A program made the position numbers and the translations under genes. Of a DNA stretch of 64,000 nt, positions 6,289 to 53,197 are shown in pieces; within the stretch, counting starts at the first letter, position 1, and each line of letters opens with the position of its first letter. The notes below the pieces were generated by a model. That model was given only the letters and a program-made list of their open reading frames with translations. It ran no database searches and had not been told where the DNA came from. The stretch comes from a virus (lineage: Duplodnaviria > Caudoviricetes): the IMG/VR virus record IMGVR_UViG_3300021376_000006; one strand, given 5' to 3'.

Positions 6289-7267
6289 CCAGATTTTTAC
6301 CTTTGGCCTCAACCATGATATCAGCCCAATCGCTGTGCTCTAATGCCCACTTGTTGCATGCTTGGTTCCAAGCAAAATCACTGTGCGCTCGCAGTTTTTG
6401 TTTCTTGTACCCTGCTGCTAAGAGAGCGGCAAGATCAGGGCGTACATGTGGGTCATGATCCACCAACACATCTTCCCGGCTAATACTGTAATGAACAACA
6501 GGGCGAATACCACGCCAGCTGTCGCAAATCCTCTTGATACGATCGTCTCTATGGTCAATGTATTCTCCGGTGGCAATCCAATGATGGTGTAGGTCTAACA
6601 CCAAAGCGACGTCTGCAGCCAATTCGAGGCTGGCTTCAAGCCCCCAGGACATTTCATCGTTTTCGATTGTGATGCAGTTTCTTGCTTCGGGACTGAGTCT
6701 GCTGAGCGCCGCACGGATTCCGGCTGGACCGCGTTTACCCGAGATGTGGACATTGATCTTAAAGTCCTGGAACGAAGCGCCATAGCCCATCCATCTTGCC
6801 ATATCTGCATGATATTCAAACTCCTCTATACTTCTCGTTACAATGTTGTCGTTTTCGCTGGCCAACACACAGAATTGTCCAGGATGGAAACTGAGCCTTA
6901 CATCTAATCGGCGTGCAGTTTTGCCAATTGGCGCGAATATCTTTTCTAAATGTAGTTGTACATCTGCCTGTTGCCACCAAGCTTTCCAATCTTTTTCTGT
7001 ATAACCTTGCAACATTTCACTACCTAATCGAACCATTCTACGCTCGGCAGGTAGAGTGGCCACACGTTCAATCATTTTAACCGCAGCAGCAGCATTGTGA
7101 TTCATAATGTCCCATTGGCGCTGCTCGGCCTCGCCAGGATGTTCACGCAACCAACGCATGGTAGTGCTACGCCCGTTGAGATCTCGGTCCTTGGCATTTA
7201 CCTTCATGCCGCCACACTCGCTGGGGTCATTCAACCATTTGCAGGCAAAGCCAATACGTTTGATCAT
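6242..7267 (-). CDS. uvsE: UV damage endonuclease
   Basis: RIGFAC, RLSFHPGQF, IENDE, LDLHHH, RAHSDF, IMVEAKGK motifs. Confidence 0.93.
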   Translation of the reverse strand: MIKRIGFACKWLNDPSECGGMKVNAKDRDLNGRSTTMRWLREHPGEAEQRQWDIMNHNAAAAVKMIERVATLPAERRMVRLGSEMLQGYTEKDWKAWWQQADVQLHLEKIFAPIGKTARRLDVRLSFHPGQFCVLASENDNIVTRSIEEFEYHADMARWMGYGASFQDFKINVHISGKRGPAGIRAALSRLSPEARNCITIENDEMSWGLEASLELAADVALVLDLHHHWIATGEYIDHRDDRIKRICDSWRGIRPVVHYSISREDVLVDHDPHVRPDLAALLAAGYKKQKLRAHSDFAWNQACNKWALEHSDWADIMVEAKGKNLASQQLHEQSLALTPV

Positions 7268-10367: not shown

Positions 10368-10823
10368 TCAAGGTTCGTATAACCAACCCAAATTCTCCAA
10401 ACGGTGTATCCAGGTGAATATGGGCGTAGTAAACGGCAACTCCCAACGTCCGTTCCAACCCAGATATGTTGCTGATTCTATAACAGGCTTTTTGTCTGGG
10501 TAATCTCTGGGATATTTTGGACGGTAATTTCCGGTCCATTTGAATCTATCCAAACTTAAATTTTCAAATTTTACTTCATGAATTTCTATAGCCATATCTA
10601 GATTTTTTTCTAGAACGCAATCATTATAATCTTTATTATCAAATTCTATCCAAAAAACATGTGAACCGTTTTTTAAATTTTGATTAACTTTTATAACTAA
10701 GATATCCGTCAGTTCTACTGTGTCAATTGTTTGTGAATCTACTCCGTAGGTGATAACAGGTTTAGTTCGCCACCAACGCGGAACTACAGTTATTTCTACG
10801 TCAAGATTGAATTGTGTATCCAT
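10368..10823 (-). CDS. Hypothetical protein
   Basis: 151 aa, ends YLGWNGRW...WIHRLENLGWLY. Confidence 0.7.
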   Translation of the reverse strand: MDTQFNLDVEITVVPRWWRTKPVITYGVDSQTIDTVELTDILVIKVNQNLKNGSHVFWIEFDNKDYNDCVLEKNLDMAIEIHEVKFENLSLDRFKWTGNYRPKYPRDYPDKKPVIESATYLGWNGRWELPFTTPIFTWIHRLENLGWLYEP

Positions 10824-12093
10824 GTTGTAAAAAAAGTTCTTGATACTCAGGATAAATTTCTAAGGCGTTTAAATTATGTACTGTATCCCACCGCGTCATC
10901 CATGCTACTAATTCTCTTAATTTATTTGTATCAGTTTGAGCTTGATTGTCAATGAAATTAATCATGGTATCGCATTCCCTAATTAATTGTAAGCTTAGTC
11001 TTGAAGTATCTCTACCAACACTCAACGTGTTAAAATCTACAGAACTGTTTTGTTGAATAAATTCTTTTAATGTTACAAAATTTTGTCTGAATTTCTGACG
11101 CACTTCATATGGAAGCACGTCAATCGCTAGATACGATGGTTGCCGTAACGGATTGCTTTGAATACTGATGTTGAAATCAAACGCACGTTTTATAAGTTTA
11201 TGATAGGTGTTTATACTTAACAATTGCGGGACACTTCTTAAAACTAGTGAAAAGTTTTCATTTTGTAAACTGTTAAGATATTCTATATTCTTCCAGACCT
11301 GTTCTGTGTCACTACCTTGTCTGATATAGTGATTGTTAGATTCTGTCGACTCCACGCTGACTTCTATGTCAACTCTTTTAAATTTTTGTAAGTTATCTAA
11401 CAAATCGTGATTTATAACTGTGGCATTGGTTACAAAACTGAGGCTTAAATGAGTCAGTTTGTTTTTAACCAACCAATCAATAAATTCTATAAATCTTTTA
11501 TTAATAGTCGGTTCGCCGCCCATTACATGTATTCTATGCAATTTAGAGACTGATTGCACGTTTTCAAGGAATTGTTGATAACACTGGTTGTCGTTAGTCC
11601 AATTTGCTTTGTGCTGAAACGGAATTTTCCATTTGGTATAATGCGAAGCAATTTTGCTACTTGCATCGGGACCGCACATTTTGCATGCTAGATTACATTC
11701 ATTACCAAAATCAATATGCCAATCAATTGGTAACTTATCACTGTCAGATTTGAAATTTTTTTTCCATGGACTCTGGTCAAAACTTTTTTCAAATGCATGT
11801 TCTGTGAATATAGCTACTTTATAATTTTCTTTTATTCTACGACTTTGATGTCCGTATAATTCTTCATGATAACATCCAATACACTCAGGTAATGGTTCGT
11901 TACCTAGAATTCGTTCTCTAAAGTTTTGCATGGTATTGCTGTTATACCATGTGATAAGATTAGTATTTTGAATATTGTATTTTGTGCCTTGTGCTTTTTG
12001 GGATTCTGAACAACAAACACCGTAAGTGCCGTCCCAATACAAATGAGTGTTATGCCATGGCACTGCACAAAAAATTTTTTGATTGGCCATCAA
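10801..12093 (-). CDS. Radical SAM protein with N-terminal SPASM/twitch-like Cys cluster
   Basis: CNLACKMC, MGGEPT, FCAVPW...VCC...CIGCY; paralogue of 489..1586. Confidence 0.9.
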   Translation of the reverse strand: MMANQKIFCAVPWHNTHLYWDGTYGVCCSESQKAQGTKYNIQNTNLITWYNSNTMQNFRERILGNEPLPECIGCYHEELYGHQSRRIKENYKVAIFTEHAFEKSFDQSPWKKNFKSDSDKLPIDWHIDFGNECNLACKMCGPDASSKIASHYTKWKIPFQHKANWTNDNQCYQQFLENVQSVSKLHRIHVMGGEPTINKRFIEFIDWLVKNKLTHLSLSFVTNATVINHDLLDNLQKFKRVDIEVSVESTESNNHYIRQGSDTEQVWKNIEYLNSLQNENFSLVLRSVPQLLSINTYHKLIKRAFDFNISIQSNPLRQPSYLAIDVLPYEVRQKFRQNFVTLKEFIQQNSSVDFNTLSVGRDTSRLSLQLIRECDTMINFIDNQAQTDTNKLRELVAWMTRWDTVHNLNALEIYPEYQELFLQHGYTIQS

Positions 12094-15022: not shown

Positions 15023-15534
15023 ATGTGTCCGGTTATTTGTAATGTATATCTAGGTTGGAATCCCATGTTAAATGCACTGTGTGGTGCATCCCATGGCCAT
15101 ATCAAAGTAAATCCTGCAATCCAATCAGCATACCCAGTGCTTTCACATTCTGCAAAATGTCCGGGTTTACGATCTTGTAAAAATACCACTGCTCGACGTA
15201 TCCGGTATTCCTGACCTTGTAAATTGAATAATTCAATGTAGCGACGATAGGTATCAATGTGATTGGGTAAACTGCTACCTGGATCCATTCTGTAATAACA
15301 TGTGCCTATGTTCTTCCATTTGCCATAAGTTTCAAAGAAGTCAATAAATTTTTGATTCCAACTGGGCTGAGCACTACGCATGTCGCACATCCAACCACCA
15401 AATGGACCGCGGAATCCCGCATCTTCCCACTCTATTTGTGTAGCAGGATCATTGAATTTTTCTTTTATGTAATCTAATTTTGTATATTCATCATCCCAAA
15501 ATTTTGCAATGTTAAACTGTTCGTGTGTTACCAT
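15019..15534 (-). CDS. 2OG-Fe(II) dioxygenase / cupin-like protein
   Basis: PNHIDTY (HxD) and distal PHSAFN...RYTLQITG. Confidence 0.7.
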   Translation of the reverse strand: MVTHEQFNIAKFWDDEYTKLDYIKEKFNDPATQIEWEDAGFRGPFGGWMCDMRSAQPSWNQKFIDFFETYGKWKNIGTCYYRMDPGSSLPNHIDTYRRYIELFNLQGQEYRIRRAVVFLQDRKPGHFAECESTGYADWIAGFTLIWPWDAPHSAFNMGFQPRYTLQITGHI

Positions 15535-16738
15535 AATAAATTACCTTGTAATCTTTACTGGTTTTATATTTGCGCCAAGGATCAACAATTACACTGCCAG
15601 GTTCTAAGTCAACATATAGTTCTTGTTCTCGTTGTTCTCCTGTATATCCGTATGTGACATTTCTGTTGTGAGCTAAAAATGCTATTACCGGCATACCATT
15701 GAATGGAGGATCGTCGCCGGTTAAAGGATCTACATAATAAAATTTGGCTTGAATAGATTGCAAATAATGACCTATCAATAAGCTATAACTGCCATCAACG
15801 AAATCAACGTCTGGTTTATATGCTTTGCCCATAATGAATATAGGCAAGTTGTATTGCCTTTGTATTTTGGCAAGATATCTTGCAATGTTGCGTGCCTGTT
15901 TTTCTCTTGCATGCATTATGGTATTAAAAATATCATAACCAAGATTTAAATTTTCTGCCAACCAACGTAGTGCAATATTGTCTCTTGGGTGGCATGGACC
16001 TGCATCGCCCATTCCTGCTCGCATGTATTTTGGACTCATTATACGTATGGTGCTATTGGCCAATGCCTCAGTAACAACATCAACATTTATATTACCATTT
16101 GCCATAGCAACATCTTGAATCATGTTTACTAATCCAATTTTGGTACTAATAAATGTGTTATAAAATATTTTGATTGATTCTGCTTCATCCCAGGTACCGA
16201 CTATGTATCTAGGATTGTTTTGCATGATAGACTTATAAAATTCAATCAATGTCTTGGCGTCTCCTGTTTCACTTCCATCCTTGGTTCCAATAATAACCAT
16301 TTCAGGATTTATCATGTCCCACTCAACACTGCCCATGGCAATCAAGTAAGGATTATAAACAAAGCGAGCATTGGTAATACATGAGCGTAGTTCTTTTCTA
16401 ACTGTACCAGGTAATACTGTGCTAATTAACACAACTAACTGATCTGGGCTGGCCCATGCATTGATATTGTTAAGCACTTGTTTAACTGTAGTATAATCAA
16501 AATCTTTATTAGGCAAATGTGTAATTGGTTGGCTGCCATCATAGGCAGGATCATGCGGAGTTTGTACTGCCACAAATACCAAATCTTTTCCTACCACTGC
16601 ACCTCGTATAGAGTCAGATATTTTAATTTTGTTGCTGGTTTTTGGACACACATCATAACCAACTACATCGTGAACTTGTGCCATTGTTTCAGCACAAGGC
16701 ATGCCCAACTTACCAAGACCGATAAAGCCTATGTGCAT
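15512..16738 (-). CDS. ugd: UDP-glucose/GDP-mannose 6-dehydrogenase family
   Basis: GLGKLG, LISTV.PGT, YNPYL, AESIKIFYNTFISTKI, GPCHPRD, AYKPDVD. Confidence 0.9.
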   Translation of the reverse strand: MHIGFIGLGKLGMPCAETMAQVHDVVGYDVCPKTSNKIKISDSIRGAVVGKDLVFVAVQTPHDPAYDGSQPITHLPNKDFDYTTVKQVLNNINAWASPDQLVVLISTVLPGTVRKELRSCITNARFVYNPYLIAMGSVEWDMINPEMVIIGTKDGSETGDAKTLIEFYKSIMQNNPRYIVGTWDEAESIKIFYNTFISTKIGLVNMIQDVAMANGNINVDVVTEALANSTIRIMSPKYMRAGMGDAGPCHPRDNIALRWLAENLNLGYDIFNTIMHAREKQARNIARYLAKIQRQYNLPIFIMGKAYKPDVDFVDGSYSLLIGHYLQSIQAKFYYVDPLTGDDPPFNGMPVIAFLAHNRNVTYGYTGEQREQELYVDLEPGSVIVDPWRKYKTSKDYKVIYYGNTRTV

Positions 16739-16796: not shown

Positions 16797-17561
16797 TTAT
16801 TGTACGCTGGTTGCATTGATAGTATTCAAAATTAATTGTTCCATGTCATGTATACGTGTTCTGGTTGTGTTACTATTTAATACCACAAACAAGCGTTTTT
16901 GGTTGCGAATGTACACACTCATTACTAAACATCCGCCGCTGGCTCTTACATATCCAGTCTTACTTACAATTACGTTATACTTGTTAACCAAAGGATTTGT
17001 GTTATTATATTTAAATTTAATGAATTTTTTCTTTTTCTTCTTTACAAGTTCGCCTACTGCTTGATTGCTTGCATACACAATTTCTTTATATCGTTCAGCT
17101 GCCATCAACAACTTAATCAAATCTCGAGGTGTACTTACATTTCTGTTATCTAGGCCACTGCTGTCCGCGAATCTTGTATCGGTCATTCCTAGTATTTGAG
17201 CTTTATGATTCATATCAGATATACAATTATTGTATCCTCTACGATAAACTTCGCATAGCATTTTAGCCGCATAGTTATCTGAACGTATAACCGCCAAATT
17301 AATTAATTGTTCTCTATTAACAATTAGGCCGCGAAATCTCCTGTCAAGAGGTTGTTGTAAATTATCGTTAGAATCAAGAACTACCATGGCTGTCATTAAC
17401 TTGGTTATACTTGCAATAGGCTGCTGTATTTCAATATTTTCCGATTCTAATACGGTACCATTACCGTCGGCTATAAGCCAAGACTTAGCCGATATATTAG
17501 TAGAAAAAACAGGGTAGCTCACAATCATAAAGATCGCGTAAGCAAGAAAAAATCTAAACAT
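16797..17561 (-). CDS. Peptidase S11 (D-Ala-D-Ala carboxy/endopeptidase, PBP7-like)
   Basis: Signal peptide; SITK (SxxK), SDN (SxN), KTG motifs intact. Confidence 0.9.
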   Translation of the reverse strand: MFRFFLAYAIFMIVSYPVFSTNISAKSWLIADGNGTVLESENIEIQQPIASITKLMTAMVVLDSNDNLQQPLDRRFRGLIVNREQLINLAVIRSDNYAAKMLCEVYRRGYNNCISDMNHKAQILGMTDTRFADSSGLDNRNVSTPRDLIKLLMAAERYKEIVYASNQAVGELVKKKKKKFIKFKYNNTNPLVNKYNVIVSKTGYVRASGGCLVMSVYIRNQKRLFVVLNSNTTRTRIHDMEQLILNTINATSVQ

Positions 17562-23743: not shown

Positions 23744-25630
23744 TTACGGCTTTTCTGTAAACTCAGCATCTACTACATTGTCATCTGCAGTGGGCTTTAC
23801 AGATTGCTCTGTAGTTGACGGCTGTTTTGCTTCGTTGATTGCATTTGAGGCAACAAACAATTCAGTCAATTTTGTTGTAATTGCTTCTCGGTCTGTGCCT
23901 GCAATGGCTTGTTCTAGTTCACTTATTTTATCGTTTATTGTCTTCGTCTGATCTTCTGCGAGTTTGCCCCCAACTTCTTTCAGATCAGTTCTTACTTGGT
24001 GGATCACTGAATCCGCTTGGTTACGAGTTTCAATGAGCTCTAGTTGCTTTCGATCCGCAGCGGCATTTGTTTCAGCATCGCGAATCATCGCCTCAATCTG
24101 TTCTTGACTTAGACCACTATCAGATTTAATGGTAATCCGATTTTCTTTGCCAGTTTTTTTGTCTCGAGCACTTACTTTAAGAATGCCATTTGCATCTACA
24201 TCTAGAACAACTTCAATTTGGGGCATACCTCTAGGTGCAGGATCGATACCTTCTAAATTAAATTCGCCTAGCAGTTTGTTGTGCTGTACTAGTTCACGTT
24301 CACCTTGATAGACTTTGATAGTAACTGCAGGCTGATTGTCTTCAGCTGTGCTGAACACTTGACTATGCTTGGTAGGAATAGTTGTATTCTTTGGTATTAG
24401 TTTGGTCATCACTCCGCCCATGGTTTCAATACCTAGGCTCAGTGGGGTAACATCAAGTAATAGCACATCTTTACGATCACCACCTAGTACAGCACCTTGT
24501 ACTGCTGCTCCGGCTGCTACTGCTTCATCTGGATTAACATCACGACGTGGTGCTCGTCCGAATAACTGTTCAACCGCTTCTTGCACTTTGGGCATACGTG
24601 TTTGGCCACCAACTAAAATAATCTCATCTATATCGCCGGCAGTTACTCCAGCATCTTGCATTGCTGTACGGCATGGTTCGATGGTACGCTGAATTAGATC
24701 ATCAACTAGACTTTCTAATTTGGCTCGAGTAATTTTAATGTTAAGATGTTTTGGACCAGTGGCATCAGCAGTGATGTAAGGTAAGTTTACATCTGTTTGT
24801 GTGTTGTTGGACAACTCAATCTTGGTACGCTCGGCAGCTTCTTTTAGTCGCTGTAGCGCCATTACGTCTCGGCCGAGATTAACTCCAGATTCCTTCTTAA
24901 ATTCAGTAATAAGGTAATCCATAATGCGTTGATCAAAATCTTCGCCTCCTAGGAATGTATCCCCATTGGTGCTAAGTACTTCGAATTGTTTATCACCATC
25001 CACATCAGCGATGTCGATAATAGATATATCAAAGGTACCGCCACCAAGATCATACACAGCAATTTTACGGTCTTTTTTGTCACTCTTGTCTGCTCCATAT
25101 GCCAGGGCTGCTGCCGTTGGCTCGTTGATTATACGTAATACCTCAAGTCCAGCAATAGCACCCGCATCTTTGGTGGCCTGACGCTGGCTATCATTGAAAT
25201 ATGCAGGGACTGTAATTACTGCTCGTGTTACTTCGTGCCCAAGATAGTCTTCAGCGGTCTTTTTCATCTTGCGTAGCACTTCAGCTGAGATTTGCGGAGG
25301 CGCCAGTTCTTGGCCGTTGGCCTGTACCCAAGCATCACCGTTCTTGCTCTCCATGATTTCATAGGGCATGAGATTGATGTCTTTTTGTACAGCCTGCTCC
25401 ATGAACTTGCGTCCGATCAGTCGCTTGGCAGCATAGATAGTGTTCTTGGGATTGGTTACAGCCTGACGTTTGGCGCCAGCGCCTACCAGAACTTCGTCTG
25501 AGGTATAGGCCACAATGCTGGGCGTAGTACGTGCGCCTTCTGAATTTTCAATTATTTTAGGGATTCCGTTTTCGACAACTGCTACGCAGCTATTGGTGGT
25601 ACCAAGATCAATACCAATGATAGTACTCAT
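23744..25630 (-). CDS. dnaK: Chaperone DnaK (full length)
   Basis: [38 protein letters not shown]-terminal VVDAEF. Confidence 0.98.
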
Positions 25631-28189: not shown

Positions 28190-28261
28190 AGCGTGTATTT
28201 ATAGAATTGTATGGCTAGTATATTATACTAACGGAATGACGTCAACTAATTAATATGTCAT

Positions 28262-32502: not shown

Positions 32503-32814
32503 CTAGGTAATAATACTTCCTATGGTAACAGGTTCAATACCTGTGGTTGTTTTGATATAATGTTTTTTCATTTGGTCAATACTGGGTGCATGCATAACTA
32601 TATGTTGTTTTTGCAGTCGAACATTCACATCAGCATCGGCTGTGAACAGGCTTTGAATAAGTCCCATGCCTTGAGGGCTGGGCATCACAGTGCATGGTTT
32701 AGAGATTTCTAAGTAATCGTCCGATATCAATTCAACTCGAGCAACAATTTCGTCCCCGGTTACCAATTTGAAACTCACAATATCCCCTGTGGAATAAATC
32801 TTTGAAACTAACAT
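32503..32814 (-). CDS. Sm-fold-like phage hypothetical protein
   Basis: IVSFKLVTGDEIVAR...Y...TTGI. Confidence 0.6.
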   Translation of the reverse strand: MLVSKIYSTGDIVSFKLVTGDEIVARVELISDDYLEISKPCTVMPSPQGMGLIQSLFTADADVNVRLQKQHIVMHAPSIDQMKKHYIKTTTGIEPVTIGSIIT

Positions 32815-33056
32815 TAATTTTTTACCTTTTCAAAAAATTCATTTGGTTGTTTTTGAAGTCCATCGAAGCCGCCTGGAATAAGTTCATATCCATGAAATAT
32901 CTGTGGCACACTTCGTAGACCTTTATCTACTAGCATCTGCCGCGATTCTGGGTCATACTCTATGTTAATTTCATTGTATTTGACGCCTTTGCTTTCTAAC
33001 AATTGTTTTGCTCTATCACAAAATGGGCAATTATTTTTTGAATAGATAGTAATCAT
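32814..33056 (-). CDS. Glutaredoxin
   Basis: CPFC, SVPQIF, GGFD. Confidence 0.93.
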   Translation of the reverse strand: MITIYSKNNCPFCDRAKQLLESKGVKYNEINIEYDPESRQMLVDKGLRSVPQIFHGYELIPGGFDGLQKQPNEFFEKVKN

Positions 33057-33154: not shown

Positions 33155-33853
33155 TTACGAGTTAAATTTTATTATTTTATCTTTAATTAATCTTGGATAA
33201 ACATAACTCCTCATCCAATTATCATATCCAACAGTCGAAGGATGAAAGTCATCTGATTCTAAACCATTGCAATTTAGCGATGTTTCATATATACAATCAT
33301 TATTTTCTGCAAAAATAAAGTTTTCAAAATCAATTTCCTTGCATATATTTTTTAATTCTTGATATTTATAAACTCCAAAATTTCTATTTTTTACATAATC
33401 TTTGTGGTTCCAATAATTTACGTAAGTCATGAAATAATATTTTATGCCTTTACTTTTTAAAAAATTTTGCAATTTAATCATTTCAAATAAACTTCTAATG
33501 CCTCTAGTTAACTCGTTTCCTTTTTTAATAAGTTCTTGGTAAATTGAATTTTGGCTTAGTACATCACCACTGAACTCAAAAAATATGTTATCTAAAGCTT
33601 GTCTTTTGTTGTCAACAACTAGTTCATCAACTATTAAATCTATTCTTTGTAGTCCGGACCACATAACTATTACACAATCATAATCAAAATTTGAATAAAT
33701 TAGTTCTAAAATTATACTGTCACTTATATATTGGTTACCTGCGCCAGGCATACCAAGATTACGAACAGCACCAAAGTCTTTTAACCACACAGGCCATCCG
33801 TTTTTTAGATTTTGTTGTCCGGTGAAACTACAACCTGAAGTTAAAAAAATCAT
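33155..33853 (-). CDS. SGNH-hydrolase-like protein
   Basis: GCSFT, NLGMPGAGN, DDFHPS blocks. Confidence 0.6.
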   Translation of the reverse strand: MIFLTSGCSFTGQQNLKNGWPVWLKDFGAVRNLGMPGAGNQYISDSIILELIYSNFDYDCVIVMWSGLQRIDLIVDELVVDNKRQALDNIFFEFSGDVLSQNSIYQELIKKGNELTRGIRSLFEMIKLQNFLKSKGIKYYFMTYVNYWNHKDYVKNRNFGVYKYQELKNICKEIDFENFIFAENNDCIYETSLNCNGLESDDFHPSTVGYDNWMRSYVYPRLIKDKIIKFNS

Positions 33854-33879: not shown

Positions 33880-35007
33880 TTATAAACTAAATCCTCGAAA
33901 TGTATTATTATCAACATCTTGTTTCGTGCCACCAATTACATAACTTGAAATTTCTGTTTCTTGTGGAGCAACTTGCACTTCGGCGCCGGCAATCCATTTG
34001 GCTGTCCATGGTAAGGGATTTGATCCTGGTTTCATTCCACAGTCTAGTCCTACTGCTGTCATGCGCTTGCAGGTCAACCAATCTACATAGTGACACAATA
34101 ATTGTTGATTAAGCCCAATCATGGATCCGTTTTGAAACAAATAATGTGCCCAGGCTTTTTCTTGTGCTGCGGCGGCTAAAAACATTTGATTGCATTCTGC
34201 ACGAGTTTCTTCTTTTATAGAAGCATAAGAAGGATCATCCTGTGGCAACAATTTGAGAAGGGTCTGCGTTGACCCTAAATGAACATTTTCGTCTCGCGCA
34301 ATTAATTTGATAATCTTGGCATTGCCTTCCATTTTCTTCAGTTCAGCAAAGGCCCATGAGCAAGCAAAGCTGACATAAAATCTAATACCTTCAAGTGCAT
34401 TGACACTATTCAAACACAACCACAATTTCTTTTTGAGTTCATACATATCAACCGTGACGGCTTCTCCGTTAACGGTATGTTCTCCTACCCCTAATAGATT
34501 GTAGTATTGCACCGATTTGATTAAATCATCATAATATTTGCTAATGTCTCGGGCACAGTCTACAATTTCTTTTATGTCCGTGAGCTCATCAAATATAATG
34601 CTAGGGTCACTATAAACGTTCCTGATAATATGAGTATAGCTACGGCTATGAATCGTTTCATTAAAGGCCCAAGTTTGTATCCAAGTTTCCAGCTCAGGAA
34701 TAGTAGCGACGGGAAGAAAAGCAAGGTTAGGACTACGACCTTGAACACTATCCAATAGGATCTGTCGCTTAAGATTGCTTGTAAAAATATGTTGTTCATG
34801 TTCTGTTAGTTCTTTGAAATCCTTGCTGTCTCGAAGTACATCAACTTCTTCTGGTCGCCAAAAGAAACCTAATTGTTTATCTGTTAATTTGTCAAATTGT
34901 CTATATTTTAGTGTGTCGTATCTTTGAATAGGTTGTGCGCCTGACTCATCTAAAAAGGCCAATGCTTCGGTGTGTTTGTTCTTATTATTAATATTAAATA
35001 CGCTCAT
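33880..35007 (-). CDS. nrdB: Ribonucleotide reductase class Ia beta subunit
   Basis: [47 protein letters not shown]. Confidence 0.97.
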
Positions 35008-36212
35008 TAAAATTGATCCTTCTCTGTGCTGTGTGCCATGGCCGCTGTGCTCTTTGCACCTACAGCTTCGCTAATTAAATCAAAATAACCAACGCCAACT
35101 TCTCGTTGATGTTTTACCGTTGTAAATCCACGATCCTGTGCTGCAAACTCGCGCTCCTGCATTTCTGAATATCCAGCCATACCACGTTGCCGGTATGCCT
35201 CTGCCAGCTCAAAGGTTGCAAGATTAACACTGTGGAATCCAGCTAGTGTAATAAACTGAAACCGGTATCCTAATGCACCAAGTTCACGTTGAAAGGTCTC
35301 GCATTCTTCTTCGCTCAGGAACTTTCTCCAATTAAAACTAGGAGAGCAGTTATAAGCAAGCATTTGATCAGGATAAACACTGTGAATAGCATCGGCAAAT
35401 TTTTTCGCCTGCTTAATATCCGGCATGCTCGTTTCAAACCAGAGTAGGTCCGCATACGGCGCATAGGCCAATCCTCTGGCGATACAGGCCTCAATTCCAT
35501 TTTGAAATTTGAAGAAGCCTTCTTCTGTTCGTTCATGTACAATAAAATCCTTATCTAATGGATCATGATCTGATGTAATCAGCGTGGCCGCTTCTGCATC
35601 TGTACGAGCCATAATCACGGTATCCACACCGGCTACATCTGCGGCCAGTCTTGCAGCATTTAGATTGCGTATGGCCTGGCTGGTTGGAATCAATACCTTG
35701 CCTCCAAGATGCCCGCACTTCTTTTCGCTGCTCAGTTGATCTTCAAAGTGTACACCTGCGGCACCTGCTTCAATCATGGCCATCATGAGTTCATATGCAT
35801 TGAGTGCGCCACCAAATCCTGCTTCAGCGTCTGCCACAATAGGTAAGAAATAATCCACATCTGTTCGACCTTCACTAAAGTCAATTTGATCTGCACGACG
35901 GAAAGCATTGTTTATACCCTGTACAACTCGAGGCACACTATCTACCGGATACAAACTTTGATCCGGATAGGTAGTATTTGCGGTATTGTTAGCTGCTGCA
36001 ACTTGCCAGCCGCTTAGATAAATTGCTTTTAGGCCTGCCTTGGCATGTTGTACAGCCTGTTGACCATTATAGGCACCTAGTGTATTGATGTAAGGTTCGT
36101 TTTGTAACAGGGTGCGTAACTTATCTGCGCCTAGTCTGGCCAAGGTATGGTCTACTCTAATAGATCCCTGCAATTTTCTTACAGTATCAAAACTGTAATT
36201 TCTTTTTTTCAT
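35007..36212 (-). CDS. aceA: Isocitrate lyase
   Basis: [58 protein letters not shown]. Confidence 0.97.
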
Positions 36213-36220
36213 ATTTTTTC

Positions 36221-38524
36221 CTAGATTACGCAACTATCACAGTCTTCTTGACTTGTATATTCTTGTTCTTCAACTTGTCGAAATTCAACTAGTTTGTCTA
36301 TGTTTACTTCACCTTGTCCATCAAATGTATTAAAATAATATAGTTGTTTTAATCCATATTTGTAACACATTAATAAATGCTGTAGCATTTCGCTCATAGG
36401 AATCTTCTCGTCGTCGTAGTGTTGTGGATTATAACTGGTGTTTACGCTTATTCCTTGATCAATATACTTTTGCAATACCGCACAAATTTTGAGATAACCT
36501 TCGGGACTGATCTGATCCCAAAGTAACTCATACTTGTTTTTTAATCTACGATATTCAGGAACCACTTGCCTTAACGCACCGTGTTTACTTTGCTTCACGG
36601 ATACACATGATCGTGGTGGCTCTATACCATTAGTGGCATTTGAAATTTGTGCAGATGTTTCTGCAGGCATTAGTGCCATTAGTGTAGCGTTACGCTGACC
36701 TGTACGCTGAATCTGTTCGCGTAGCGATTGCCATGGCATCCGTTCTGTATATGGAACTAATTCATCTACCTCGCGCTTACGTGTATCAATTGGTAATACC
36801 CCTTTTGCACTCTTTAGATCTTGCCAACGAGTACAAGCACCTTGCTCTTCAGCGAGATCTGCAGAAGTCTTGATCAAATAATAAGACCAAGCTTCTGCAT
36901 ACTCGTCAACCAAGGCCAATGCCTTAGGATCACTATAACTGACATCATTTTTGGCCAAGAAGTAGGCAAAATTGATAATACCAATGCCCAAGGGTCTAAA
37001 TTCTTCCGTAGCCAATTGTGCTGCACGAATTGGATAGTTTTGATAACTTAATAAAGCATCCAATCCTCTTACCGCCAACCTACACATCTTCTCGAAGTCA
37101 TGTGGGCTTTTTACATTGCCCCAATTGATCGCTGATAGAGTACACAGGGCGATCCTACCATCCTCGTCGTTGACGTCTCGTAACGGTACAGTTGGTAAAT
37201 CTATTTCCGCGCAAAGATTACTCATCTTGATGGGTGCCACAGCTTCGTCAAACGGCGAGTGGGTATTGGCATGATCAACATTCTGCAAATATATTCTTCC
37301 CGTATCCTTGCGTTCCTGCATGAATCTACTAAACAAATCACTAGCCTTGAAAGTTTTCTTTCTCAGCTTGGTATTACGCTCTGCTCGCTCATAAAGCTCT
37401 TTGAATCGATCCTGATCGTTGAAAAAAGCAGAGTACAGCTCAGGTACATCATTGGGACTAAAACAGGTAATGTCGCCGCCTGTAATTAGTCTTTCATACA
37501 TCAACTTGTTAAATTGCACGCCGTAATCCATATGGCGCACACGGTTATCTTCTGTGCCTTTGTTGTTCTTTAATACAATCAGGTCCTCGATCTCAAGGTG
37601 CCAGATTGGGTAGTACAGTGTAGCGGCGCCATTGCGTACACCCCCTTGGCTACAACTCCGCGTTGCGCTTTGGAACAACTTGTAAAAAGGTATAACCCCG
37701 GTGTGGTAAGCATCTCCGTTTCGTATTGGGCTGCCAAGTGCTCGTATTCGACCTGCTCCAATTCCAATTCCGGCTTTTTGGCTGACGTACTTGACAATAC
37801 TGCTAGTAGTGGCATTGATACTGTCAAGACTGTCATCTGTTTCAATAAGCACACAGCTAGAGAATTGCTTTTGCGGTGTGCGAACACCGGCCATGACAGG
37901 AGTAGGCAAACTGATATCATGTAAACTGATAGCATCGTAGTAGTCCTTGATCCATTGTAATCGTGTTTCTTGGGGATACGTTTGAAACAGTGTAGCTGCT
38001 ATCAGTATATATGCCACTTGTGGAGTTTCGTATATTTCGTTGGTAACTCTATTTTGTACTAGATACTTGCCGCGCCATTGCTCCATGGCCACATAAGTAA
38101 AATGTTTATCTCTTTCATGGTGAACAAAACTGTTCAGACGATCCCATTCGCTAGCAGTATATGCGTCTATTAGACCTTGATCATAAAAATCCGATTCCAC
38201 ATTTTGCTGTACCAATTTAATCAACGGCCACGGACTGTAATCACCATATACCTGTTTGCGTAAATGATAATTAATTAGTCTTCCTGCTACATATTGATAA
38301 TTTGGAGTTTCTTCGCTTATAAGATCAGCAGCAGATTTAATAAGTGTTTCTTGGATATCTGCTGTTTTTATTCCGTTATAAAACTGTATGTGGCTTTTTA
38401 TCTCTACTTCGCTTGCGCTTACACCAGTGATTCCTTCGGTTGCCCAAAATACAACTCGGTGTAGTTTTTCTAAATCTAGTAATTCTTTACGTCCGTCTCT
38501 TTTAGTAACTTGAATTTGTGTCAT
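36221..38524 (-). CDS. nrdA: Ribonucleotide reductase class Ia alpha subunit
   Basis: ATP cone VTKRDG, QFSSCVL, SNLCAEI, C-terminal DCDSCVI. Confidence 0.97.
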
Positions 38525-38532
38525 TAACGCCT

Positions 38533-38985
38533 CTAGTATTGTTCTAATTTTAAGTCAACCGCTGTGTAGCGATATTTTAATTTTAATTCTTGATTAATGT
38601 GTTCTTTATTTACAATCTCGTCCTCAATCAAATTAAGAACATATTTTCCGCCACACAAGTATGCTATATGGTAATTGTACCTGGTCTTTCGATCGTAATA
38701 TATCCTAATTTCCGGTTCTAAGAATGATTTATGACCTGAAAGATGTAAAGTATACACGATTCCTAACACTTTAGCAAGGTCACAATAGGTATTTTCTTGT
38801 AACAACTGCCATGGATCTGGCCAATTGGATGGCGAGTCATAATCCAAGTAAAAAGGACTGAAAGGACAAGTATGCCATAATTCCAAAGTCGTATGTATGG
38901 CTTCAACTAAAGATAGATTGTCGAAATTTTGCCTAACAGACTTCCACCGCCGCAATCGCTCGCTGGTTGATAATTTGAACATCAA
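38533..38985 (-). CDS. Conserved phage hypothetical protein
   Basis: NWPDPWQLL.EN.YCD. Confidence 0.7.
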   Translation of the reverse strand: MMFKLSTSERLRRWKSVRQNFDNLSLVEAIHTTLELWHTCPFSPFYLDYDSPSNWPDPWQLLQENTYCDLAKVLGIVYTLHLSGHKSFLEPEIRIYYDRKTRYNYHIAYLCGGKYVLNLIEDEIVNKEHINQELKLKYRYTAVDLKLEQY

Positions 38986-40352
38986 ATGAACTGTCTATAT
39001 GTGAATTGATATGTTGCGATTCCACTGCTTACAGAAACAAGAATGCAGTCGTTATTAGCTGATATATTAGCACCCACTCCGGTGGGCGTTTCAACGTAGC
39101 TGTCAGTATAAGTCAGTGTAGAGCCTTGTGTGGCCAGTGTCAATGATCCTATTCTAACATTACTATTACTTTTCAGTTGATAATCAACAATGCCTGCTGC
39201 GTTGCCAGCCGTGACAAAAACAGATGGTGTTGTTGTGATAGTAAATCGTTGGCTAGGATTTATTACACAGTTGCCTAAATATAAACCTGAATTCACTCTG
39301 TTGTCACTGTCGTAAAAGTTGCCAAGTTCAAAATTAAAATTACTTCCATTTGAAACAAAGCTTGTTGCTCCACCTATGTAATTGCCTATGCTTACGAACC
39401 CGGTACTAGTACCAAGATGAGCTGCTGTATTGCTCATATCAGTAAAACTACTGTTCATAACTCTTACTGATGTAATTGATGCACCGGTTAAAGCAATACT
39501 GTTGCCGCCACCAACAAACACACAGGTATCAAATGTAAGTTTACTAGATCCAATTACTGAACTTGCAACCGAAACAATGTTAGGAAAAAAACCTGCGCTT
39601 GCATTTGAAACAAACTTGCTGTTTGTTATTTTTACATTACTAGCACTGTCAATCACAACCAGCGGAGTTACAATGCTTGCATTACTGTTAAAGAAATTTA
39701 TGCCGTTAACTTCTATATCTATAGGATAAACAGCTGAACCACTTCCAATACTTGCTGCTGTCTGAAAAGAACTGTCGCATGTTGTAGCTACAGACTGATT
39801 GCCCATTGATTGTTTTATTACGGTACTAGATAATCCATCACCCACCAGTTTGGTGTATGGAGGAATTAAAAGGGTGCTGTTAATAGCGTATGTTCCGCCA
39901 GGAAAATAAATTGTTCGTCTGGCTCGAGGTTCAGTCGGACTGACTGTTGATTGGTAAATCTGTTGTATTGCACGATTAATTGCTACTGTATCATCTGTAG
40001 TACCATCACCAACTGCTCCAAAATCTTTTACATTTACAATGTCATCTAATTTTTGTTGGTAGGTCCTTACAGTAGGCGACATTATACTTGCACCGGTTTG
40101 TGCTGTATAACCTGCAGTATTGCCTACAAAAGTGTACGAAGAAAATGCAACGTTTGAAGTTAAATCATAAATGTCATGTTCTGTTAAAATCCGCGTGATG
40201 CCCACAATTGGGGCGCCTTCTGCCAGAGTGCCATTACCAATATATAATTGTCTTGTATCTACGCTCCAGCCAAGCTCAGCTGAGGCAAGTTGCGGAAGAT
40301 CTTGCTCCAATCCCCTGCGATGTTGAATTCTGCTTATCTGCGTAACGGCCAT
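38982..40352 (-). CDS. Tail fibre/spike protein with pectate-lyase-like beta-helix
   Basis: RRG...AELGWSVDTRQLYIGNG N-terminus; VNVKDFGAVGDGTTDDT.AINRAI; IYFPGGTY. Confidence 0.8.
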   Translation of the reverse strand: MAVTQISRIQHRRGLEQDLPQLASAELGWSVDTRQLYIGNGTLAEGAPIVGITRILTEHDIYDLTSNVAFSSYTFVGNTAGYTAQTGASIMSPTVRTYQQKLDDIVNVKDFGAVGDGTTDDTVAINRAIQQIYQSTVSPTEPRARRTIYFPGGTYAINSTLLIPPYTKLVGDGLSSTVIKQSMGNQSVATTCDSSFQTAASIGSGSAVYPIDIEVNGINFFNSNASIVTPLVVIDSASNVKITNSKFVSNASAGFFPNIVSVASSVIGSSKLTFDTCVFVGGGNSIALTGASITSVRVMNSSFTDMSNTAAHLGTSTGFVSIGNYIGGATSFVSNGSNFNFELGNFYDSDNRVNSGLYLGNCVINPSQRFTITTTPSVFVTAGNAAGIVDYQLKSNSNVRIGSLTLATQGSTLTYTDSYVETPTGVGANISANNDCILVSVSSGIATYQFTYRQFI

Positions 40353-41075: not shown

Positions 41076-42075
41076 CTAAAATTTTATTAATTTGAGCAGC
41101 TAACAATTTATCATAATTGGTACTTGTTAATAAATTAAAATTGTGCTCAACAATTGATTGTATTTGATTTAGTATTTTATCTTGATCTTGATTACATAAA
41201 AAAACAACTTGTTTCATTACTGCTGTAAATCTTTGCTTTTCGTTGACTATAGAATCATAGGTCTCGTCTATTATAATATTAAAAGTTTGAAAACCTAATT
41301 CTTTTAAAAAATTGAGATAACCAGGACTTGAAAAAACTACAAACAATCGTTTGGCCAAAATTGGTCTTGCAATCTTTTCGCTTACAAGAATAAGATCGTT
41401 TTGACTGACAGTTTCTGAAACCATTGTGTAAGCAGTTTGTGTGTAAAGTTGTACAGGAACATACTTATAGTTAACTATTTCTACATCATTGTACAAAGCT
41501 GTAGCATCAAATCTATTTTGGATATCATCATACCAATAAGTAGGATTTTTATTATGTCCTGCGTAAGTAAATATTATTTTATCTTCAAGTAATTCCCTTG
41601 GTATCAACTCGTATATAAGATCTCTAGGAGGTCTATTAGATCCCAACAAACAATCAAAATATTTAGACTTTGGTTGATTGGGTGAAATATCATTTAAAAG
41701 GTTGTTTATTCCTAAATTATTATAAGTAGCAGCTATCTCCCGCATCCAAGCGTTCCAAAACAAATTTTTTGTTTCATATGTTTTACAGTATTTTCCTGGT
41801 AAGACCCATATAACATTGCGAAACAATTCAAGGTTGATATGATTTGTCCAATTTGGATGATCTGCAAAATAAAAAACTAAGGTAGAATGTGTATTTAAAT
41901 TGTATAATATAGATGGAAATTCACTTCCGCACTGAAAAATACATGATACTTTAAATTTCTTGTTTGAAGATATGAATTCGTCTAAATCATGCGTTATTTC
42001 GAATTTTTTTATATCTACGTAGTCATCCTTAAACCATCGTTCAAAGAAGAATTTTTGAGAATAATATAACAACAT
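41056..42075 (-). CDS. Putative glycan-modifying protein, paralogue of 5203..6288
   Basis: TMVSET...VSEKIARPI...LGFQTF...IDETYD. Confidence 0.45.
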   Translation of the reverse strand: MLLYYSQKFFFERWFKDDYVDIKKFEITHDLDEFISSNKKFKVSCIFQCGSEFPSILYNLNTHSTLVFYFADHPNWTNHINLELFRNVIWVLPGKYCKTYETKNLFWNAWMREIAATYNNLGINNLLNDISPNQPKSKYFDCLLGSNRPPRDLIYELIPRELLEDKIIFTYAGHNKNPTYWYDDIQNRFDATALYNDVEIVNYKYVPVQLYTQTAYTMVSETVSQNDLILVSEKIARPILAKRLFVVFSSPGYLNFLKELGFQTFNIIIDETYDSIVNEKQRFTAVMKQVVFLCNQDQDKILNQIQSIVEHNFNLLTSTNYDKLLAAQINKILDDYSKI

Positions 42076-42395
42076 TATATACGGAAGCTTTCGCCGCAGC
42101 CGCAGCGATCACGTTCCTTGCTGTTTATAAAATCAAAGCCTTCGTTAAGACCTTGACGTTTGTAATCCATGGTCATGCCATCAATGTAAGGAAGATCCTT
42201 GGGATTGACAAATACACTAACACCATTTGATTCATACTTGACCTGTTCATCTGTGGGTTTGTCAATGTATTCTAATTTGTATGCCAATCCAGAACAGCCT
42301 GTGGTTCTTACTCCAATGAGAATACCAGCACCATGACCTCTACGGTCAAGCTGTTGTCTTACTTTTTTTGCTGCCAGTTCAGTTAGCTGTATCAT
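42075..42395 (-). CDS. iscA: A-type Fe-S carrier IscA
   Basis: TTGCSGLAY, CGCGESF. Confidence 0.95.
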   Translation of the reverse strand: MIQLTELAAKKVRQQLDRRGHGAGILIGVRTTGCSGLAYKLEYIDKPTDEQVKYESNGVSVFVNPKDLPYIDGMTMDYKRQGLNEGFDFINSKERDRCGCGESFRI

Positions 42396-42765
42396 TTTTT
42401 GATCGATAGTCTGCCAGTGCTGCTTTGATAGCATCTTCGGCTAAAATACTACAGTGGATTTTAACCGGAGGTAACGCGAGTTCTTCCGCAATGTCCGAAT
42501 TCTTAATTGAATCCGCTTCATCAAGACTTTTTCCTTTAAGCCACGTAGTGACCAACGACGAGCTTGCTATAGCCGAACCGCAACCGTATGTTTTAAATTT
42601 GGCATCGGTGATAACATTGTCTTCTACTCGAATTTGAAGTTGCAAAACATCGCCGCATGCTGGCGCACCAACTAAACCAGTGCCTACGCTTGGGTCTGTT
42701 TTATCTAGTTTTCCAACATTTCTTGGATTTTCATAATGATCCAAAACCTGACCTGAATAAGCCAT
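42379..42765 (-). CDS. iscU: Fe-S scaffold IscU
   Basis: DHYENPRNVG, APACGDV, FKTYGCGSA, LPPVKIHCS. Confidence 0.96.
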   Translation of the reverse strand: MAYSGQVLDHYENPRNVGKLDKTDPSVGTGLVGAPACGDVLQLQIRVEDNVITDAKFKTYGCGSAIASSSLVTTWLKGKSLDEADSIKNSDIAEELALPPVKIHCSILAEDAIKAALADYRSKNDTAN

Positions 42766-52495: not shown

Positions 52496-53197
52496 TTAAT
52501 TTTTAACAGCGGCCAATCTTAATGATTGTAATACTCGAATATAAAACCAACCAATATCAAATTCAAACCACCGACGGCTTAAACGAGGACTAGCTGGATC
52601 CAAATGATGATTATTGTGTAATTCCTCGCCGCCAATTAATATACCAATGGGCACGATATTACGACTTTGGTCTCTGGTCTCACCGTTGCGATATCCCCAA
52701 AAATGTCCAATACCGTTAATTACTCCTGCTGCCCAGAAGGGTATCCAGATCATTTGTATACCCCATATTATGGCGCCCACCCAACCGAATAGTAAGATGT
52801 TGAACACAAGGAGAATAGTAATGCCAAGTCTGGAGTGAGGCGTGTATAACTTATGCTCAATCCAATCATTAGGAGTGCCAACACCGTATGTATTAACCAT
52901 GTCTTTATCTTTGCTTGCCTCATGATACAACAATGCTCCTTTAAGTAAAACATGCCAGATACCATAGTGTACTGGACTATGTGGATCTTCTGCTTGTTCG
53001 CAAAATCTATGATGCTTTCTATGAACCGCCACCCACTGTCGAGTGACCATTCCTGTAGTTAACCATAACCAAAAACGCATGGCATGACTGACCATGGGAT
53101 GAAATTCCACTGCTCTATGTGCCTGACTGCGATGTAGGTATAGCGTCACACAGTCTATGGTGATGTGTGTGACTAAAAAAGTGTATAGTATGATCAT
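52496..53197 (-). CDS. desA: Membrane fatty-acid (acyl-CoA delta-9 type) desaturase
   Basis: His boxes HRSQAH, HRKHH, HNNHH; EFDIGW. Confidence 0.92.
   Translation of the reverse strand: MIILYTFLVTHITIDCVTLYLHRSQAHRAVEFHPMVSHAMRFWLWLTTGMVTRQWVAVHRKHHRFCEQAEDPHSPVHYGIWHVLLKGALLYHEASKDKDMVNTYGVGTPNDWIEHKLYTPHSRLGITILLVFNILLFGWVGAIIWGIQMIWIPFWAAGVINGIGHFWGYRNGETRDQSRNIVPIGILIGGEELHNNHHLDPASPRLSRRWFEFDIGWFYIRVLQSLRLAAVKN

What the first reader, a model, noticed from the sequence alone, without database searches (positions are those of the whole stretch)
33880..38524. Isocitrate lyase wedged between nrdA and nrdB and coupled to nrdB
Seen: order nrdA-aceA-nrdB; the aceA stop overlaps the nrdB ATG; KKCGH active site intact; no malate synthase in the window. 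Established: ICL splits isocitrate into succinate and glyoxylate, bypassing CO2-releasing TCA steps. Inference: co-expression with dNTP synthesis suggests glyoxylate is wanted for nucleotide precursors (via glycine) rather than for the classical shunt.
Basis: partly seen in the sequence, partly recalled or inferred. Interest (0 to 1): 0.65.

Follow-up and report, generated by a model that had tools for sequence, protein, structure and literature searches.

The report
Phage isocitrate lyase in RNR cargo slot
An uncultured giant phage carries an intact-looking isocitrate lyase gene between its two ribonucleotide reductase genes. Phage copies of this enzyme are already on record, and in relatives that spot is usually empty or holds unrelated genes, so the position does not show a link to DNA-precursor synthesis.

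Summary
On the minus strand the order is nrdA (36221-38524), isocitrate lyase (ICL, 35007-36212) and nrdB (33880-35007). The ICL stop shares one base with the nrdB ATG, and KKCGH and the other catalytic motifs are present. I found no malate synthase in the window or in two near-complete relatives (374 and 338 kb).

The ICL belongs to a large clade seen only in viruses. It lacks about 25-30 N-terminal residues and is under strong purifying selection, so it is probably active.

The position says little about function. Of 73 close relatives (nrdB 82-94% identical), 33 have an empty nrdA-nrdB gap, 32 hold unrelated genes including a homing endonuclease, and 8 hold ICL. Other relatives place the same ICL after nrdB, or far from the reductase genes next to a desaturase-like gene and behind a late-type promoter box.

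The best reading is an ICL-only metabolic gene sitting in a hypervariable cargo slot, as mobE does in T4. The glycine-to-nucleotide idea is neither supported nor excluded.

Phage ICLs, including ICL-only freshwater huge phages, are published. This scan also found the same arrangement on another genome (e1-5373900). This is a new member of a known kind, of low to moderate interest.

The parts
36221..38524 (-). nrdA, class Ia ribonucleotide reductase large subunit (767 aa)
   Evidence: Pfam ATP-cone, Ribonuc_red_lgN and Ribonuc_red_lgC, E=4e-127. Best phage relatives are 57-61% identical: Stenotrophomonas phage DLP_6 and 350-kb jumbo phages such as GAP32, 121Q and XaC1.
36213..36223 (-). nrdA stop to ICL start junction: TAG, 8 nt, then ATG, with an AGGA overlapping the nrdA stop
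   Evidence: Read directly from the sequence. The same tight junction occurs in relatives.
35007..36212 (-). Isocitrate lyase (401 aa), an N-terminally shortened type seen only in viruses
   Evidence: Pfam ICL 351.6 bits. NCBIfam equivalog NF011645 684 bits against a cut-off of 562. Full-length alignment to PDB ICLs with the motifs [38 protein letters not shown] and TLAGFH kept. dN about 0.1 with saturated synonymous sites.
35005..35009 (-). ICL stop / nrdB start overlap (TAATG)
   Evidence: The AAGGA formed by the conserved C-terminal E-K-D codons lies 9 nt before the nrdB ATG.
33880..35007 (-). nrdB, class Ia ribonucleotide reductase small subunit (375 aa)
   Evidence: Pfam Ribonuc_red_sm, E=7e-41. 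At least 581 relatives in IMG/VR; the best 80 are 82-94% identical.
33155..33853 (-). 232-aa ORF of unknown function following nrdB
   Evidence: No Pfam, PHROGs or NCBIfam match. A weakly conserved homologue (28-37%) follows nrdB in some relatives.
32814..33056 (-). Glutaredoxin (80 aa), the likely reductant of the reductase; it closes the RNR module
   Evidence: Pfam Glutaredoxin, E=3e-19.

Best explanation
The window comes from an uncultured jumbo tailed phage; its relatives in IMG/VR reach 338-374 kb. Its reductase module reads nrdA, ICL, nrdB, an unknown ORF, then glutaredoxin.

The ICL is a real and probably active isocitrate lyase, splitting isocitrate into succinate and glyoxylate. It belongs to an abundant, strongly conserved clade that I saw only in viruses, and the phages carry it without malate synthase.

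Its place between nrdA and nrdB reflects where new genes can be inserted in these phages. The short nrdA-nrdB spacer is a hypervariable cargo slot. It is the same place where T4 carries the homing endonuclease gene mobE. Genes are dropped in without a gap, so translational coupling of the reductase genes is kept.

In this phage ICL is therefore most likely made on the reductase module's transcript (inferred). That timing is a by-product of the insertion site. As an auxiliary metabolic gene, ICL most likely redirects isocitrate away from the CO2-releasing TCA steps in the infected cell, and the host handles the glyoxylate (inferred). Which product the phage needs is unknown.
For: The enzyme looks genuine. 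Its equivalog-level HMM score is above cut-off, all catalytic and substrate motifs are aligned to solved ICLs, and KKCGH is present.

Selection is strong. dN is 0.09-0.14 with synonymous differences at saturation (pS about 0.8) across 33 comparisons.

The clade looks virus-specific.
- 189 IMG/VR stretches matched; the best 80 are 85-92% identical.
- The top 120 of 8000 scored proteins are all at least 87% identical.
- Only one hit, at 61%, appeared in 185,579 prokaryote species genomes.
- The 81 viral ICLs form one clade with 98% support.

The slot is variable. Of 73 close nrdB relatives with the slot covered, 33 are empty (13-16 nt), 12 hold a PGDYG ORF, 18 hold another single ORF, 2 hold two ORFs and 8 hold ICL. 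The other single ORFs include an Asp/Asn beta-hydroxylase-like protein, a 230-aa unknown family and a GIY-YIG/NUMOD1 endonuclease. Every cargo abuts nrdA and nrdB without a gap.

ICL itself moves.
- 7 loci have nrdA-nrdB-ICL and 17 show no reductase gene in the flank fetched.
- In complete or near-complete genomes ICL lies 20 kb or more from the reductase genes.
- There it is followed by a desaturase-like gene and preceded by an ATAAATAC box.
- Phages with the window's RNR type carry an ICL of the other clade at another locus.

Malate synthase is absent.

Precedents exist in the literature. T4 mobE lies between nrdA and nrdB, and the nrd region is a homing hotspot (PMC2790892). Phage ICLs are published.
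Against: About 79% (63 of 80) of the ICL-bearing viral contigs fetched still have ICL next to reductase genes. This holds for two RNR lineages that are only 46% identical. Some preference for this site, selective or mechanistic, is therefore not excluded.

No homing endonuclease accompanies ICL in the window, so how the cassette moves is not shown.

Enzyme activity, transcription and host are all unverified. The whole genome of this phage could not be searched for aceB.
Confidence: 0.7

Rival explanations
1. One reading: a functional link to nucleotide synthesis. ICL is placed in the reductase module so that its products feed nucleotide precursors while dNTPs are being made. Glyoxylate would go to glycine for purines and C1 units, and succinate to oxaloacetate and aspartate for pyrimidines and purines. 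A phage with about 350 kb of DNA has a heavy precursor demand.
For: ICL is tightly coupled to nrdA and nrdB here. ICL lies beside reductase genes in 63 of 80 ICL-bearing contigs and in two divergent RNR lineages. No phage malate synthase is present, so glyoxylate has no dedicated phage sink. Single relatives place an amino-acid dehydrogenase (DadA-like) or a class IV aminotransferase straight after ICL.
Against: In the closest relatives the slot is mostly empty or filled with unrelated cargo. The same ICL elsewhere has its own late-type box and a desaturase-like neighbour. The amino-acid enzymes are singletons. From established biochemistry, ICL competes with NADP-isocitrate dehydrogenase, a source of the NADPH that RNR reduction ultimately needs. 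No glycine-forming enzyme is in the window.
Confidence: 0.15
2. Iron and redox sparing. ICL bypasses the NADH-producing TCA steps to lower the demand on the iron-rich respiratory chain and to lower oxidative stress. This would protect iron-dependent phage enzymes such as the di-iron NrdB, the radical SAM enzymes and the desaturase.
For: The same gene array encodes IscU and IscA (42075-42765) and a glutaredoxin. The window also has two radical SAM/SPASM proteins and a di-iron-type desaturase-like gene, whose homologue follows ICL in 14 relatives' loci. Phage C48C1 also has a NifU-like gene 3 kb from its ICL. Papers on iron limitation that discuss the glyoxylate shunt came up in search, but I read only their titles and abstracts.
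Against: The case is purely circumstantial and no regulatory element ties these genes together. Fe-S assembly genes are common in large phages for other reasons. Nothing here was tested.
Confidence: 0.1
3. The protein is not an isocitrate lyase in practice. It would be a methylisocitrate lyase or other PEP-mutase-superfamily enzyme, or a decaying passenger gene.
For: It lacks the N-terminal 25-30 residues of bacterial ICLs. It also matches the PEP_mutase family and prpB models weakly.
Against: The ICL equivalog scores 684 bits against 110 bits for prpB. It is about 60-65% identical to solved ICLs over the full length. The W, F and T residues that, from my recollection of the literature, distinguish ICL from methylisocitrate lyase are kept (LLWFETS and QFITLAGFH). 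Strong purifying selection rules out decay.
Confidence: 0.03

Closest known systems
ICL genes of huge phages (bioRxiv 10.1101/2025.02.27.640493) and of marine viromes and viral genomes (Hurwitz 2013, PMC4053976; aceBA operon of TARA_ERS478052_N000008, Nishimura 2017, PMC5332604)
   Same: A phage-borne isocitrate lyase read as an auxiliary metabolic gene. The preprint reports 98 ICL but only 22 malate synthase genes, with malate synthase never found in the freshwater phages. That is the same ICL-only pattern seen here.
   Different: The passages I read in those papers (text hits on 'isocitrate lyase'/'glyoxylate' and one section) do not mention the nrdA-ICL-nrdB placement, the virus-only shortened clade or its selection pattern. 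The marine example pairs ICL with malate synthase, and this phage does not.
Bacterial AceA / ICL1 (solved structures 6lrp, 7cmx, 3i4e, 1igw, 1f61)
   Same: About 60-65% identity across the whole enzyme, with all catalytic and substrate-binding motifs kept, including KKCGH.
   Different: It starts at about residue 25-36 of the bacterial enzymes, giving 401 aa against 428-436. It sits in no aceBAK operon: aceB and aceK are absent. It forms a separate viral clade on a long branch.
Phage T4 mobE between nrdA and nrdB; the nrd region as a homing-endonuclease hotspot (PMC2790892)
   Same: A foreign gene is inserted exactly in the nrdA-nrdB spacer of a T4-like reductase module and integrated so that nrdB expression is preserved. 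One relative (L160) carries a GIY-YIG/NUMOD1 endonuclease in this slot.
   Different: The cargo here is a metabolic enzyme, not an endonuclease. No endonuclease lies next to it in the window, and no terminator or internal promoter was found.
Phage C48C1 (OQ984149, Kyanoviridae, 156 kb)
   Same: It is the only true phage record among the GenBank phage records that encodes an ICL homologue (64% identity). There it is annotated as hypothetical.
   Different: Its ICL is not near the reductase genes, and it lies outside the 85-92% viral clade.

Membership tests
Isocitrate lyase (AceA/ICL1; Pfam PF00463, NCBIfam NF011645) | Whole-protein score above the curated family and equivalog cut-offs | tested here: met
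   PF00463 scores 351.6 bits against a cut-off of 26. NF011645 scores 684.1 bits against a cut-off of 562.
Isocitrate lyase (AceA/ICL1; Pfam PF00463, NCBIfam NF011645) | Catalytic loop KKCGH plus the Mg2+ and substrate-binding motifs | tested here: met
   [38 protein letters not shown] and TLAGFH all align with solved ICLs. The roles assigned to these residues come from my knowledge of the M. tuberculosis and E. coli structures.
Isocitrate lyase (AceA/ICL1; Pfam PF00463, NCBIfam NF011645) | Full-length architecture, including the N-terminal segment of bacterial ICLs | tested here: not met
   The alignment starts at residue 24-36 of the PDB chains and the protein is 401 aa against 428-436. The whole viral clade is 401-402 aa. 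The rest of the fold is covered to the C-terminal residue.
Isocitrate lyase (AceA/ICL1; Pfam PF00463, NCBIfam NF011645) | Cleaves isocitrate to succinate and glyoxylate | not testable with these tools
   This needs an enzyme assay. Strong purifying selection argues only that the protein is functional.
Glyoxylate shunt operon (aceBAK type) | Malate synthase encoded with ICL | tested here: not met
   No AceB hit in the window or in 81 other loci (80 of them viral), while the bacterial control was positive. PF01274 is absent from five viral records, including a 100%-complete and a 97%-complete genome. The rest of this phage's own genome could not be searched.
Glyoxylate shunt operon (aceBAK type) | Isocitrate dehydrogenase kinase/phosphatase AceK | tested here: not met
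   No tblastn hit at E<=1.
Class Ia ribonucleotide reductase module | NrdA with ATP-cone and barrel, NrdB small subunit, and a thiol reductant | tested here: met
   Pfam domains for nrdA and nrdB. A glutaredoxin lies two genes downstream.
Free-standing homing-endonuclease cassette (T4 mob/seg type) | An endonuclease gene within or beside the inserted cassette | tested here: not met
   The window's slot holds ICL only. A GIY-YIG/NUMOD1 gene fills the slot in relative L160. The slot resembles the T4 mobE site, but ICL is not itself such an element.

The most novel reading that the evidence does not exclude
Freshwater jumbo phages carry an ICL-only module, with no malate synthase, whose purpose is not the classical shunt. 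It would supply glyoxylate (to glycine and C1 units) and succinate (to aspartate) for the very large nucleotide demand of a genome of about 350 kb. Its repeated placement beside reductase genes in two divergent RNR lineages would then be selected co-expression.
Probability: 0.12. Interest if true: 0.65.

Novelty: new member of a known kind. Interest (0 to 1): 0.3.

Why it matters
Gene position in large phages can mislead. An enzyme sitting inside a functional module, even translationally coupled to it, may only mark a permissive insertion slot.

Two results go beyond that. First, a very abundant, N-terminally shortened ICL clade seen only in viruses is under strong purifying selection. Second, it travels without malate synthase. 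Infected cells in lakes may therefore run an incomplete glyoxylate bypass whose glyoxylate sink is unknown. That can be tested by enzyme assay and isotope tracing once a host is found.

Tried and rejected
- Whole-genome search for aceB: no genome is held for this window. I used five IMG/VR records of relatives instead.
I could not inspect the 697-kb and 260-kb contigs that encode 87-89% identical ICLs, so a cellular carrier of this clade is not fully excluded.
- Cellular donor: the genome-contig scan gave one 61% hit, in an Ardenticatenaceae MAG. No donor could be named.
- Recent horizontal transfer as the reason ICL (86-92%) is so much better conserved than the flanking reductase genes (about 46% and 41%): rejected as recent, because synonymous sites are saturated. 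Older reshuffling is supported instead.
- A recurring glycine-related partner: the DadA-like gene and the class IV aminotransferase each occur once.
- PhaR-type TGC-N3-GCA box, a lead from earlier notes: absent within 160 nt upstream of ICL in the 16 non-RNR loci with upstream sequence.
- Sigma-70 promoter and terminator scan of 31-42 kb: at the chance level. No minus-strand terminator lies inside the module.
- PHROGs has no ICL family.
- The DNA-level search of GenBank phages found only short reductase-gene fragments.
Full report
**1. What is in the sequence**

Three co-oriented minus-strand ORFs fill 33880-38524.
- nrdA (36221-38524, 767 aa) has an ATP-cone, the all-alpha domain and the RNR barrel.
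- The middle ORF is listed from a TTG at 36233. The ATG at 36212 follows an AGGA that overlaps the nrdA stop codon, with 8 nt between stop and start. The protein is therefore 401 aa.
- nrdB (33880-35007, 375 aa) starts on the last base of the ICL stop (TAATG). An AAGGA made by the last ICL codons lies 9 nt upstream.

**2. Is it a real isocitrate lyase?**

The sequence evidence says yes.
- It scores 351.6 bits on Pfam ICL.
- It scores 684 bits on the NCBIfam isocitrate lyase equivalog, whose cut-off is 562. The methylisocitrate lyase model gives only 110 bits.
- It aligns without large gaps to solved bacterial ICLs (6lrp, 7cmx, 3i4e, 1igw, 1f61), from their residue 24-36 to their last residue.
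- It keeps [38 protein letters not shown] and TLAGFH.

The only structural departure is the missing N-terminal 25-30 residues. Activity was not and cannot be tested here.

**3. What carries it**

The window is phage DNA. It encodes:
- a baseplate protein, a DnaB-like helicase, a second DNA helicase and a primase-type Toprim protein;
- an Mtd_N/pectate-lyase tail-fibre-like protein;
- a PAAR protein and a cell-wall hydrolase;
- a DnaK.

There are no tRNA genes in the window, and no close DNA match in GenBank phages. The nrdA is 57-61% identical to those of Stenotrophomonas phage DLP_6 and of 350-kb jumbo phages such as GAP32, 121Q and XaC1. IMG/VR relatives that carry the same ICL include records of 374 kb (estimated 100% complete) and 338 kb (97%). 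Earlier notes of this scan call the genome a freshwater phage of about 338 kb; I did not check that.

**4. The ICL clade**

- IMG/VR holds 189 stretches that match the ICL; the best 80 are 85-92% identical.
- In the 5.8-billion-protein collection, the top 120 of 8000 scored hits are all at least 87% identical and 401-422 aa long.
- A peptide-pattern scan of one genome for each of 185,579 prokaryote species found a single relative at 61%. I estimate such a scan would catch an 88%-identical protein about nine times in ten.
- In a tree, the 81 viral ICLs form one clade (98% SH-aLRT) on a long branch away from phage C48C1, Salmonella and a Chloroflexota MAG.

On this evidence the clade is viral. 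There is one caveat.

Against 33 loci that also have both reductase genes complete, ICL shows dN of 0.07-0.14 with synonymous differences at saturation (pS about 0.7-0.9). This is old, strong purifying selection, so the protein matters to the phages.

**5. Why the position is not evidence of partnership**

I fetched the 80 closest IMG/VR relatives of the window's nrdB (82-94% identical). In 73 of them the nrdA-nrdB gap is covered:

| Slot content | Loci |
|---|---|
| Empty (13-16 nt with an SD-like GAGAG) | 33 |
| 147-aa PGDYG-domain ORF | 12 |
| Another single ORF | 18 |
| Two ORFs, no ICL | 2 |
| ICL | 8 |

The 'other single ORF' class includes an Asp/Asn beta-hydroxylase-like protein, a 230-aa unknown family, a DUF6071-like protein and a GIY-YIG/NUMOD1 homing endonuclease in L160.

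Phages with nrdB 91-94% identical to the window's differ in whether ICL is present. Every cargo starts within a few bases of the nrdA stop and ends within 0-50 nt (mostly 0-4 nt) of the nrdB ATG. The PGDYG ORF in L086 has the same one-base overlap with nrdB.

This is the place where T4 carries mobE, in a region described as a hotspot of endonuclease insertion (PMC2790892).

**6. ICL moves**

Among the 80 ICL-bearing viral loci:
- 56 have nrdA-ICL-nrdB, or a truncated part of that order;
- 7 have nrdA-nrdB-ICL;
- 17 show no reductase gene in the flank fetched.

In the second group of phages (group B), small variable ORFs sit between ICL and nrdB.

In the 338-kb genome ICL lies about 21 kb from nrdB. 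In the 374-kb genome it lies about 160 kb away. The 374-kb genome and record G004 carry the window's RNR type (80-83% identical) but an ICL of the other clade at a different locus.

The two RNR types are only 46% (nrdA) and 41% (nrdB) identical. Each is closer to a different set of cultured phages. Their ICLs are nevertheless 86-89% identical. Reductase genes and ICL have therefore been reshuffled relative to each other. Context changes at least 4-5 times on well-supported branches of the ICL tree.

In the non-RNR contexts two things recur.
- ICL is followed, directly or one ORF on, by a 233-244-aa gene in 13 loci (a 14th, L053, has it upstream of ICL). That gene is 70% identical to the window's fatty-acid-desaturase-like ORF at 52496-53197.
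- In seven distinct upstream regions ICL is preceded by an ATAAATAC box 20-45 nt before the ATG. This resembles the T4 late-promoter core.

The window has no such box on the minus strand between 33369 and 45390. If these boxes are late promoters, which is an inference, ICL timing differs between relatives. That argues against a required co-expression with the reductase.

**7. Malate synthase and the fate of glyoxylate**

- No AceB or AceK homologue is in the window or in the 81 other loci; the bacterial aceB in L082 served as a positive control.
- No malate synthase domain is in five viral records, including the two near-complete genomes.
- None of the roughly 68 window ORFs scanned is a malate synthase or a glyoxylate aminotransferase.

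This agrees with a preprint that found 98 ICL but 22 malate synthase genes in huge phages, with none of the malate synthases in freshwater phages.

Two relatives place an amino-acid enzyme straight after ICL. One is a DadA-like FAD dehydrogenase (L052; 465 bits against a cut-off of 494). The other is a class IV aminotransferase (L044). Each occurs once, so they give only a faint hint of a glyoxylate/glycine link.

Glyoxylate could equally go to host malate synthase or to another sink. In Acinetobacter oleivorans, aceA but not glcB is needed for growth on acetate, and other glyoxylate routes exist (PMC6779741).

From established biochemistry, ICL competes with NADP-isocitrate dehydrogenase. It does not help supply the NADPH that RNR reduction ultimately needs.

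**8. Verdict**

The gene is a conserved, probably active, ICL-only auxiliary metabolic gene of a kind already published for marine and huge phages.

Its place between nrdA and nrdB is best explained as a hypervariable cargo slot. An independent earlier report of this scan on another genome reached the same reading (e1-5373900), and I reproduced it here with my own census.

The nucleotide-precursor idea remains possible; I put it at about 0.12-0.15. It gains no support from the position, and it needs isotope tracing or genetics to settle. An iron/redox-sparing reading is circumstantial only. The supporting genes are IscU and IscA, glutaredoxin, radical SAM proteins and the desaturase-like gene nearby.

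Novelty: a new member of a known kind. Interest: 0.3.

Noticed in passing
window 52496-53197 (-); L069:7209-7910, L033:6442-7152, L074:7211-7912 and others: A short (233 aa) fatty-acid-desaturase-like gene (Pfam FA_desaturase). Its homologues (57-79% identical to one another; the window's copy is 70% identical to L069's) lie beside ICL in 14 relatives' loci where ICL is not next to reductase genes (following it in 13). This is a second recurring ICL neighbourhood.
   Followed up: partly
window 42075-42765 (-): IscA-like (Fe-S_biosyn) and IscU/NifU_N genes lie in the same co-oriented gene array, about 3.5 kb upstream of nrdA. Phage C48C1 also has a NifU-like gene 3 kb from its ICL (L001:4630-5001).
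   Followed up: no
L017 vs window; L163, L164: Two RNR lineages (nrdA 46% and nrdB 41% identical, each nearer to different cultured phages) occupy the same syntenic place (tail-fibre-like gene, 150-aa ORF, nrdA, nrdB). ICL stays 86-89% identical across them, so either the reductase genes or ICL were exchanged between related jumbo phages.
   Followed up: partly
L052:7206-8381; L044:2101-2973: A DadA-like D-amino-acid dehydrogenase and a class IV (branched-chain/D-amino-acid) aminotransferase each sit directly after ICL in one relative. Both are singletons among about 160 loci.
   Followed up: yes
L085:940-1692, L090:962-1729; L086:2476-2919; L160:5235-5948: Other cargo of the nrdA-nrdB slot: an Asp/Asn beta-hydroxylase-like 2OG-oxygenase-fold protein, a PGDYG-domain protein, and a SegE-type GIY-YIG/NUMOD1 homing endonuclease.
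   Followed up: partly
L064, L066, L070, L074, L080, L057, L069: 20-45 nt before the ICL ATG: A conserved ATAAATAC box (like the T4 late-promoter core) lies before ICL in otherwise dissimilar upstream regions. In the window, similar boxes sit 11-63 nt before several gene starts, for example at 28202, 31130 and 25693.
   Followed up: partly
window 38982-40352 (-): A tail-fibre-like protein (Mtd_N plus a pectate-lyase-like domain) lies two genes upstream of nrdA on the same strand, with a 150-aa ORF of unknown function between them. This trio is syntenic in both RNR lineages.
   Followed up: no
window 23744-25630, 6242-7267, 16797-17561, 489-1586, 10801-12093, 15512-16738 (all -): Other notable genes: a full-length DnaK (about 66% identical to proteobacterial DnaK), a UvdE UV endonuclease, a D-Ala-D-Ala carboxypeptidase (Peptidase_S11), two radical SAM/SPASM proteins and a UDP-glucose dehydrogenase.
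   Followed up: no
L046:7575-9659: A 694-aa protein with an autotransporter beta-domain lies between ICL and nrdB in one relative.
   Followed up: no
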